DNA of 64,000 bases, taken from NCBI RefSeq assembly GCF_009914755.1, contig NC_060927.1; one strand, 5' to 3'. The notes below the pieces were generated by a model. That model was not told the DNA's origin and ran no database searches. It worked only from the letters and a program-made list of their open reading frames with translations. The position numbers were made by a program, and so were the translations under genes. The DNA comes from the human T2T-CHM13v2.0 reference genome, Homo sapiens. Positions 55,895 to 57,321 of the stretch are shown piece after piece (position 1 is the first letter of the stretch; each line of letters begins with the position of its first letter).

Positions 55895-57321
55895 GGATTC
55901 CCTCTTTTTCTATTGATTGGAATAGTTTCAGAAGGAATGGTACCAGTTCCTCCATGTACCTCTGGTAGAATTCGGCTGTGAATCCATCTGGTCCTGGACT
56001 CTTTTTGGTTGGTAAACTATTGATTATTGCCACAATTTCAGAGCCTGTTATTGGTCTATTCAGGGATTCAACTTCTTCCTGGTTTAGTCTTGAGAGAGTG
56101 TATGTGTCGAGGAATGTATCCATTTCTTCTAGATTTTCTAGTTTATTTGCGTAGAGGTGTTTGTAGTATTCTCTGATGGTAGTTTGTATTTCTGTGGGAT
56201 CGGTGGTGATATCCCCTTTATCATTTTTTATTGTGTCTATTTGATTCTTCTCTCTCTTTTTCTTTATTAGTCTTGCTAGCGGTCTATCAATTTTGTTGAT
56301 CCTTTCAAAAAACCAGCTCCTGGATTCATTGATTTTTTGAAGGGTTTTTTGTGTCTCTATTTCCTTCAGTTCTGCTCTGATTTTAGTTATTTCTTGCCTT
56401 CTGCTAGCTTTTGAATGTGTTTGCTCTTGCTTTTCTAGTTCTTTTAATTGTGATGTTAGGGTGTCAATTTTGGATCTTTCCTGCTTTCTCTTGTAGGCAT
56501 TTAGTGCTATAAATTTCCCTCTACACACTGCTTTGAATGCGTCCCAGAGATTCTGGTATGTGGTGTCTTTGTTCTCGTTGGTTTCAAAGAACATCTTTAT
56601 TTCTGCCTTCATTTCGTTATGTACCCAGTAGTCATTCAGGAGCAGGTTGTTCAGTTTCCATGTAGTTGAGCAGCTTTGAGTGAGATTCTTACTCCTGAGT
56701 TCTAGTTTGATTGCACTGTGGTCTGAGAGATAGTTTGTTATAATTTCTGTTCTTTTACATTTGCTGAGGAGAGCTTTACTTCCAACTATGTGGTCAATTT
56801 TGGAATAGGTGTGGTGTGGTGCTGAAAAAAATGTATATTCTGTTGATTTGGGGTGGAGAGTTCTGTAGATGTCTATTAGGTCTGCTTGGTGCAGAGCTGA
56901 GTTCAATTCCTGGGTATCCTTGTTGACTTTCTGTCTCGTTGATCTGTCTAATGTTGACAGTGGGGTGTTAAAGTCTCCCATTATTAATGTGTGGGAGTCT
57001 AAGTCTCTTTGTAGGTCACTGAGGACTTGCTTTATGAATCTGGGTGCTCCTGTATTGGGTGCATAAATATTTAGGATAGTTAGCTCCTCTTGTTGAATTG
57101 ATCCCTTTACCATTATGTAATGGCCTTCTTTGTCTCTTTTGATCTTTGTTGGTTTACATAGTTCACACAAAGGCTCTTTAAAGCCTTAGTAAATGCACAT
57201 GTCGCTGCCACTAACTAGATTACCTGGAGAGGAAACTGAAAGTAGAGAGAGATAGAGGTTTAAAGTCTGTTTTATCAGAGACTAGGATTGCAACCCCTGC
57301 CTTTTTTTGTTTTCCATTGGC
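55895..57321 (-). mobile_element. Internal L1HS-type ORF2 fragment (endonuclease/linker region), with no poly-A and no TSD, interrupted at 57157-57262
   Basis: Open frame over ~1.26 kb; residues HTLIMGD, NYLSDH, WDAFKA, NAYKRK, EMDTFL and YQRYMEE match active human L1 ORF2p as I recall it and differ from the L1PA3/4 in this window. Confidence 0.92.

What the first reader, a model, noticed from the sequence alone, without database searches (positions are those of the whole stretch)
55895..57321. Tail-less internal piece of a young L1 at a breakpoint (non-TPRT capture)
Seen: ~1.32 kb of ORF2 with an intact frame and young-L1 residues, but no 3' UTR, poly-A or TSD. Its 3' end abuts a bisected MLT1. 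It differs from the window's L1PA3/4 at many sites (for example YQRYM versus YQRYK, and HTLIM versus HTIIM), so it was not copied from that element. Established knowledge: endonuclease-independent L1 insertions at double-strand breaks lack tails and TSDs and accompany deletions. Inference: L1 RNA/cDNA, or a distant L1HS locus, patched a break. Apparent private variants (ELRSKN, QSCST, TLSRL) could identify the source element.
Basis: partly seen in the sequence, partly recalled or inferred. Interest (0 to 1): 0.7.

Follow-up and report, generated by a model that had tools for sequence, protein, structure and literature searches.

The report
Shattered-DNA repair scar with young L1
A 2-kb stretch of human chromosome 3 is a 14-piece patchwork of a tail-less piece of a young jumping gene (L1) and shuffled copies of nearby DNA, likely a single broken-chromosome repair in which loose DNA fragments and an L1 copy were stitched together.

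Summary
The L1 piece (1,321 nt, ORF2 codons ~65-504) is 99.8% identical to L1HS-Ta copies elsewhere and has no 3' UTR, poly-A or abutting TSD. It is itself cut once and interleaved with 8 copies (630 nt, 1 mismatch) of unique DNA 1.05-1.84 kb upstream, a 70-nt orphan and 54 nt of a second, older-type L1 in the opposite orientation. The 8 copies tile their donor edge to edge (6 of 7 neighbours within 21 nt, P about 3-7e-4), on both strands, with excess microhomology (P=3e-6). That fits fragments of a resected break end joined by microhomology, as described in cancer and cell clones, better than random template switching. 'Non-TPRT' is not established: a weak endonuclease-like site sits 12 nt left of the junction, in twin-priming geometry. 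No source element was found; the flanking LTR-type repeat is truncated, not bisected. The ancestral allele could not be fetched. Not found in the catalogues searched. New variant of a known kind.

The parts
54058..54844 (+). Donor stretch (unique DNA, intact) tiled by the 8 local copies; 54332-54452 is not copied
   Evidence: genome-wide its only matches are in the scar
55697..55894 (+). Left flank: 5' part of an LTR-type repeat (label MLT1 recalled), cut at 55894; T|GAAA motif 12 nt before the cut
55895..57156 (-). L1HS piece 1 (ORF2, open frame)
   Evidence: 99.76% to L002 and L003, 3 differences at 56064, 56093, 56692
57151..57178 (+). copy a of 54093-54120 (6-nt overlap GGTTTA with L1)
57175..57222 (+). 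copy b of 54284-54331
57222..57262 (+). copy c of 54058-54098 (6-nt overlap GGTTTA with L1)
57257..57321 (-). L1HS piece 2, resuming where piece 1 stopped
   Evidence: 100% to 25 of 29 young copies, adjacent to piece 1 in them
57322..57335 (.). orphan U1 (14 nt); its last 7 nt recur as the start of U2
   Evidence: sequence
57336..57498 (-). copy d, reverse complement of 54115-54277 (1 mismatch)
57499..57561 (.). orphan U2 (63 nt), no second copy found in the genome; ends in a 12-nt stretch after TT|AAGG that could be an old TSD (inferred)
57562..57575 (+). second L1, sense, 14 nt
57573..57686 (+). copy e of 54648-54761
57692..57838 (-). copy f, reverse complement of 54483-54629
57835..57861 (+). 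copy g of 54453-54479
57859..57898 (+). second L1 resumes (1 nt skipped), 40 nt, older-type alleles at 57868 and 57875
57897..57958 (+). copy h of 54783-54844; right flank inferred to start at 57959

Best explanation
The stretch 55895-57958 is a 14-piece mosaic of a young L1HS ORF2 fragment, eight tiling copies of nearby DNA, an orphan and a second L1 snippet, likely made in one double-strand-break repair in which an L1HS cDNA and loose fragments of the resected break end were joined by microhomology. Shown: the pieces, their sources, orientation, tiling and junction microhomology, and loss of the rest of the left repeat. Inferred: a break at or right of 55894; resection at least 1.84 kb leftwards; discontinuous fill-in or flap cleavage giving 27-163 nt fragments of 54058-54844; an L1-Ta RNA reverse-transcribed from an internal point (ORF2 codon ~504 back to ~65), the cDNA cut once; all pieces annealed on 1-6 nt homologies into both strands, with deletion of at least ~170-240 nt (rest of the left repeat) plus the source of the orphan. 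Not settled: whether L1 endonuclease made the break (about 45%) or it pre-existed (about 55%).
For: Tiling: 618 of 787 donor nt covered, only 12 twice; 6 of 7 neighbours within -6..+21 nt; P=6.7e-4 free, 2.5e-4 with ends pinned, similar with BLAST extents. The two reverse-strand copies fill the gaps between forward copies. The other three sources also resume within a few nt (L1HS overlap 6, U overlap 7, second L1 gap 1). Microhomology 29 nt over 9 assessable junctions, null mean 0.79 each, P=3e-6. 6 copies forward, 2 reverse. These are the features (origin <10 kb from the end, tiling, mixed strands, microhomology, median 184 bp) of insertion chains in PMC12807874. One recent event: 1 mismatch in 630 copied nt. 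RNA origin favoured because the donor is the currently active lineage (8 of the 8 best other hits carry the Ta trinucleotide) although older copies are far more numerous (734 exact matches to an older-allele 36-mer), no distant unique flank came along, and the piece has first-strand-cDNA polarity off the left end.
Against: The order of use follows donor position (Spearman 0.79, P=0.014) and each interrupted source resumes in register, which serial template switching explains naturally. The 21-nt tiling cut-off was set after seeing the data; non-overlap alone is weak if donors could come from a wider range (P=0.08 for 1,840 nt). The tiles stop 1.05 kb short of the junction, whereas seven tiles in PMC12807874 lay right next to breakpoints. 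RNA versus DNA template cannot be read from sequence; polarity is a 50% coincidence. The fragment model itself is called speculative by its authors. The ancestral allele was not seen, so deletion size and the right junction are inferred.
Confidence: 0.55

Rival explanations
1. Serial template switching (MMBIR/FoSTeS, or jumps by L1 reverse transcriptase or polymerase theta): one nascent strand left its main template three times, copied nearby DNA and came back.
For: Return in register at -6, -7 and +1 nt; order correlates with donor position; microhomology; tract size and distance match 'repair-mediated duplications' attributed to SDSA (mean 162 bp, about 1.2 kb; PMC2671141); ORF2p-linked templated genomic insertions seen in cells (PMC11702581).
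Against: Edge-to-edge tiling with reverse copies filling forward gaps; both strands used; PMC12807874 and PMC5829575 argue that adjacency is not expected from switching.
Confidence: 0.27
2. Collapsed twin-primed TPRT: L1 endonuclease cut 12 nt left of 55895, the left 3' end primed internally on the RNA (giving the antisense piece), and the poly-A-primed end was lost with the deletion. Compatible with either stitching mechanism; it only removes the label 'endonuclease-independent'.
For: T|GAAA 12 nt before the junction, chance 0.083; geometry as in twin priming (PMC11702581); a sense L1 snippet begins within the last 85 nt of the antisense piece (chance about 0.5-2.5%); L1-made breaks give deletions and templated insertions.
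Against: The motif is not TT|AAAA and fails stricter patterns; the sense snippet differs from the main piece at 2 of 54 nt and its 57875 allele is in 0 of 30 young and 8 of 9 copies at <=94.6% identity (2 older copies did not match the pattern and were dropped), so it is not from the same RNA; no tail or 3' TSD remains.
Confidence: 0.4
3. The L1HS piece was copied from genomic DNA of another L1HS, for instance the polymorphic full-length L1-Ta whose empty site lies 57 kb to the left in the same orientation.
For: That element is published (PMC6425141 Table 3; minus strand, 6,068 bp, allele frequency 0.30 YRI and 0.06 CEU in PMC3158055); empty site at CHM13 82,148,805.
Against: CHM13 lacks it (one TSD copy); L063, taken by position to be a member of its family, differs from the piece at 8 sites against 3 for L002/L003; the neighbour's own internal sequence was not seen.
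Confidence: 0.12
4. Two steps: an ordinary (5'-inverted) L1HS insertion, later hit by a separate complex deletion; the piece is a remnant.
For: Endonuclease-like motif at the left junction; 3 private differences in the L1 against 1 in 630 nt of copies (ages overlap: 0.5-6.6 and 0.02-4.4 My at 1e-9).
Against: Needs a second rare event at the same spot within a short time; the L1 and the copies are interleaved from the first junctions on.
Confidence: 0.08
5. Assembly artefact or a change private to the CHM13 cell line.
For: No catalogue row found.
Against: Copies differ from their donor at one base and the L1 at three; ordered microhomology; the 243-kb interval around it differs by only ~210 nt between build 36 and CHM13 (anchors), which is easiest if both carry it.
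Confidence: 0.05

Closest known systems
Non-classical (endonuclease-independent) L1 insertions, NCLI (Sen et al. 2007, PMC1920257)
   Same: 3'-truncated young L1, no tail, no TSD, target deletion, extra non-L1 DNA; NCLI48 has 98 bp copied from its own deleted interval, NCLI34 a diverged L1 segment.
   Different: Extra DNA there is at most about 320 bp at the ends; here about 740 nt in 12 pieces, with the L1 itself cut and interleaved; the piece is from the 5' half of ORF2 (18 of 21 NCLI lie beyond nt 3000); a weak endonuclease-like site is present; locus not in their Table 1.
Chains of short tiled insertions from breakage-replication/fusion (PMC12807874)
   Same: Origin <10 kb from a break end, tiling, mixed strands, microhomology, 27-163 nt pieces.
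   Different: Described at junctions of large rearrangements in clones, cancers and congenital disorders; here a 2-kb local scar with no large rearrangement seen in 76 kb examined, and an L1HS piece that is tiled like the genomic pieces.
Repair-mediated duplication (Pace et al. 2009, PMC2671141)
   Same: Short copies (mean 162 bp) from about 1.2 kb away; 20 chimeras of 2 donors.
   Different: Eight copies and four sources; includes a retrotransposon piece; no row at this position in the 4 supplement files searched.
Twin-primed 5' inversions and complex L1 insertions in L1-induced cells (PMC11702581)
   Same: Antisense L1 joined to the left end; templated local DNA seen in three insertions; two-RNA inserts in opposite orientation.
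   Different: No poly-A end or TSD pair; the sense L1 snippet has older-type alleles.

Membership tests
NCLI | 3' truncation beyond 25 bp, young (<2% diverged) | tested here: met
   ends at ORF2 codon ~504; 0.24% from nearest copies
NCLI | no poly-A tail | tested here: met
NCLI | no TSD | tested here: met
   no abutting repeat at 4 candidate right ends; longest shared word 6 nt, not abutting
NCLI | junction clearly unlike the endonuclease consensus | tested here: inconclusive
   T|GAAA 12 nt left of the left junction, 8% chance; none at the right junction
NCLI | empty pre-insertion site verified in ape orthologues | not testable with these tools
   no ape genome held
Tiled insertion chain | origins tile with little gap or overlap, <10 kb from the break | tested here: met
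Tiled insertion chain | pieces from one origin in both orientations | tested here: met
   6 forward, 2 reverse
Tiled insertion chain | microhomology or untemplated bases at junctions | tested here: met
   7 of 9 with 2 nt or more, P=3e-6 for the sum; 4 junctions touching the orphan not assessable
Tiled insertion chain | sister-end fusion after replication (adjacent parallel breakpoints, copy gains) | not testable with these tools
   only one haplotype available
Twin-primed 5' inversion | sense 3' part with poly-A and TSD pair | tested here: not met
Twin-primed 5' inversion | both parts from one RNA | tested here: not met
   2 differences in 54 nt, older-type alleles
L1HS-Ta | 3' UTR diagnostic trinucleotide | not testable with these tools
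   region absent from the piece; 10 of 12 relatives checked carry the Ta form, 1 the pre-Ta form, 1 no call (motif position recalled)

The most novel reading that the evidence does not exclude
The break fell just inside an older, 5'-truncated L1 that lay in the now-deleted interval; that L1 end base-paired with a young L1-Ta RNA and primed reverse transcription by homology (RNA-templated repair), after which the cDNA was clipped off and shattered and re-joined together with genomic fragments. Prediction: the ape allele has the orphan U directly followed by a plus-strand older L1 of about 2.6 kb starting at ORF2 codon ~477, flanked by the 12-nt stretch 57550-57561 as TSD. Support: snippet lies in the last 85 nt of the captured piece, has older alleles, and follows TT|AAGG at 12 nt (3.7% chance).
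Probability: 0.25. Interest if true: 0.75.

Novelty: new variant of a known kind. Interest (0 to 1): 0.5.

Why it matters
It joins two described processes at one fully resolved human locus: tail-less L1 capture at a break, and tiled fragment chains known mainly from tumours and cell clones. The L1 cDNA appears to have been handled like the genomic fragments, which bears on the open dispute between fragment end-joining and polymerase template switching, and shows that 'no tail, no TSD' does not by itself prove endonuclease independence. One alignment to an ape or ancestral human haplotype can test the reading. No effect on a gene is indicated: the site is intronic in LINC02008 (hub annotation).

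Tried and rejected
Donor hunt: 40 of 2,819 candidates scored, 29 others aligned; best differ at 3 sites, none carries 56064G, 56093A or 56692C; exact-pattern counts 1, 13, 734 and 46. Window L1s as donor: 96.1% and 83.8%; for the 40-nt snippet 38/40 and 39/40. Source of the orphan: no second copy by DNA or pattern search, no local 10-mer match in 53000-59500, its junction with the second L1 not found elsewhere. Idea that the orphan and the right flank are adjacent parts of one old LINE (label L2 recalled): not supported, only 1 place passed the score cut and 92 of 200 shuffles reached it; right flank has no other match. Rfam: 0 matches in 53500-59500. Dating is loose. Catalogue look-ups by estimated coordinates all blank: Sen Table 1, RISCI truncated-L1HS rows jump from 81.85 to 82.47 Mb, Stewart MEI files (52), Pace files (48), PPMI files (32), Tang file (38; the full list was not in the held file), Logsdon tables (59; file cut when stored, one file unreadable). 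A blank may reflect labelling, build offsets or truncated files. Earlier scan findings were not open.

Full report
OBSERVATION. The minus strand of 55895-57156 is an open piece of L1 ORF2; 57257-57321 continues it. Together 1,321 nt, ORF2 codons about 65-504 by numbering on the window's own long L1. A search of the whole genome scored 40 of 2,819 candidates; of the 29 other copies aligned, L002 (chr11) and L003 (chr5) differ at 3 of 1,262 sites and the rest at 4-7. The window's long L1 is 96.1% identical. Of 12 relatives whose 3' UTR was fetched, 10 have the Ta trinucleotide, 1 the pre-Ta form, 1 gave no call; the 8 best hits are all Ta (motif position recalled). There is no tail, no abutting TSD and no young 3' UTR in the window or in 7 kb left and 5 kb right of it.

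THE REAL EXTENT. Self-comparison shows a mosaic from 55895 to 57958 (2,064 nt): L1HS-1, copies a, b, c, L1HS-2, orphan U1, copy d (reverse), orphan U2, second L1 (sense, 14 nt), copies e, f (reverse), g, second L1 (40 nt), copy h. The eight copies total 630 nt with 1 internal mismatch (ends set at maximal exact match; 5 nt between e and f fit either copy with one mismatch). Their donor, 54058-54844, is unique DNA whose only other matches in the genome are these copies. Of 59 sliding 2-kb windows, only three shared 20-mers with DNA 1-1.9 kb upstream: two in the scar (434 and 4) and one at 47000 (17). U2 has no second copy, so its source was probably deleted (inference).

FLANKS. The left flank is the first ~198 nt of an LTR-type repeat (label MLT1 recalled). 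Eleven relatives, of 40 listed, align to one another well past the junction, and that continuation is absent to the right; the only matches are to a separate whole copy on the other strand at about 58081-58505. So target DNA was lost. The right junction at 57958/57959 is inferred from where copying ends.

TILING AND JUNCTIONS. Sorted by origin the copies abut: gaps -6, -6, +6, +121, +3, +18, +21 nt; 618 of 787 nt covered, 12 twice. Six of 7 neighbours within 21 nt has P=6.7e-4, or 2.5e-4 with the ends pinned, and holds with BLAST extents; the cut-off was chosen after the fact. Non-overlap alone gives 9e-5 within the span but 0.08 over 1,840 nt. The reverse copies d and f fill the gaps between forward ones. 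Junction overlaps are 6, 4, 1, 6, 3, 0, 4, 3, 2 nt at the 9 junctions where both sources are known (P=3e-6). Against a purely random shuffle, order of use follows donor position (rho 0.79, P=0.014), and L1HS, U and the second L1 each resume in register.

MECHANISM. PMC12807874 (passages and sections 13 and 15 read, Supplementary Note not seen) describes chains of short insertions whose origins tile near a break end, enter both strands and show microhomology, and argues that they are single-stranded fragments of a resected end joined by end-joining, not MMBIR products; PMC5829575 and PMC7393826 (passages) make the same point about adjacency. This locus meets the three testable features. I therefore read it as one repair event with fragment stitching (0.55), with serial template switching as main rival (0.27). 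The L1 piece is likely cDNA: it belongs to the active lineage although older copies are far more common, brought no distant flank, and has first-strand polarity off the left end; none of this is proof.

WHO MADE THE BREAK. The structure meets three of the four sequence criteria of NCLI (PMC1920257, parts 1-4 of 7 read). The fourth is inconclusive: T|GAAA lies 12 nt left of the junction (chance 0.083; stricter patterns fail), the geometry of a twin-priming second primer (PMC11702581, passages). The sense snippet falls within the last 85 nt of the antisense piece (chance 0.5-2.5%), as in a 5' inversion, yet differs at 2 of 54 nt; its 57875 allele is in 0 of 30 young copies, 0 of 3 at 95.7-97.3% and 8 of 9 at or below 94.6% (older copies came from pattern searches, 2 dropped). 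It is preceded by TT|AAGG at 12 nt (chance 0.037), which suggests the 5' junction of an older L1 in the lost interval. This is the basis of the novel case.

DONOR. No copy shares the three private bases. A published non-reference full-length L1-Ta has its empty site 57 kb to the left (PMC6425141 passages and section 7; PMC3158055 supplement row). L063, taken by position to be of its family, differs at 8 sites, so it is an unlikely donor; its own sequence was not seen.

AGE AND STATUS. Point estimates 0.8-4.5 My with wide intervals, mutation rates recalled. Anchors either side put the scar near build-36 chr3:82.285 Mb and show a net difference of about 210 nt over 243 kb, so the older reference probably carries it; whether it is polymorphic is unknown.

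LITERATURE. Ten searches (listings only unless named) found no description of the locus. Also checked without a hit: PMC3024322 (supplement searches and one part of file 9), PMC2671141 (passages, supplement search), PMC10449770 (supplement search), PMC6191304 (passages; held supplement lacks the full list), PMC8102501 and PMC8082928 (passages), PMC12350169 (supplement search, file cut when stored). Variant databases and unseen supplements may well list it.

VERDICT. Real, recent, more complex than reported; a new variant of known kinds; interest 0.5.

Noticed in passing
L061:5805-5820 (CHM13 chr3:82,148,805, about 1.2 kb left of the window): Empty site (single TSD copy) of the published polymorphic full-length L1-Ta Non-ref_Chr3_p12.2_b.
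   Followed up: partly
window 45784-45933 and 47016-47171: A 156-nt direct duplication 1.2 kb apart, 86.5% identical: size and distance of an older repair-mediated duplication.
   Followed up: no
window 7239-13984: A 6,025-nt minus-strand L1 (about 96% to L1HS, frameshift and stop in ORF2) directly beside an older L1 3' end at 7239-7980 in the same orientation; further older L1s at about 14151-17270 and 20541-22168.
   Followed up: no
window 19812-19900 and 22309-22397: An 89-nt direct repeat, 86.5% identical, on either side of the L1 pieces at 20541-22168.
   Followed up: no
L064-L065 (CHM13 chr3:82,386,006-82,392,351): A 6.3-kb L1 between 15-nt TSDs with its two parts in opposite orientation (5' part on plus, 3' end on minus), used as a coordinate anchor.
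   Followed up: partly
window about 58081-58505: Whole minus-strand LTR-type repeat of the same broad family as the truncated left flank.
   Followed up: partly
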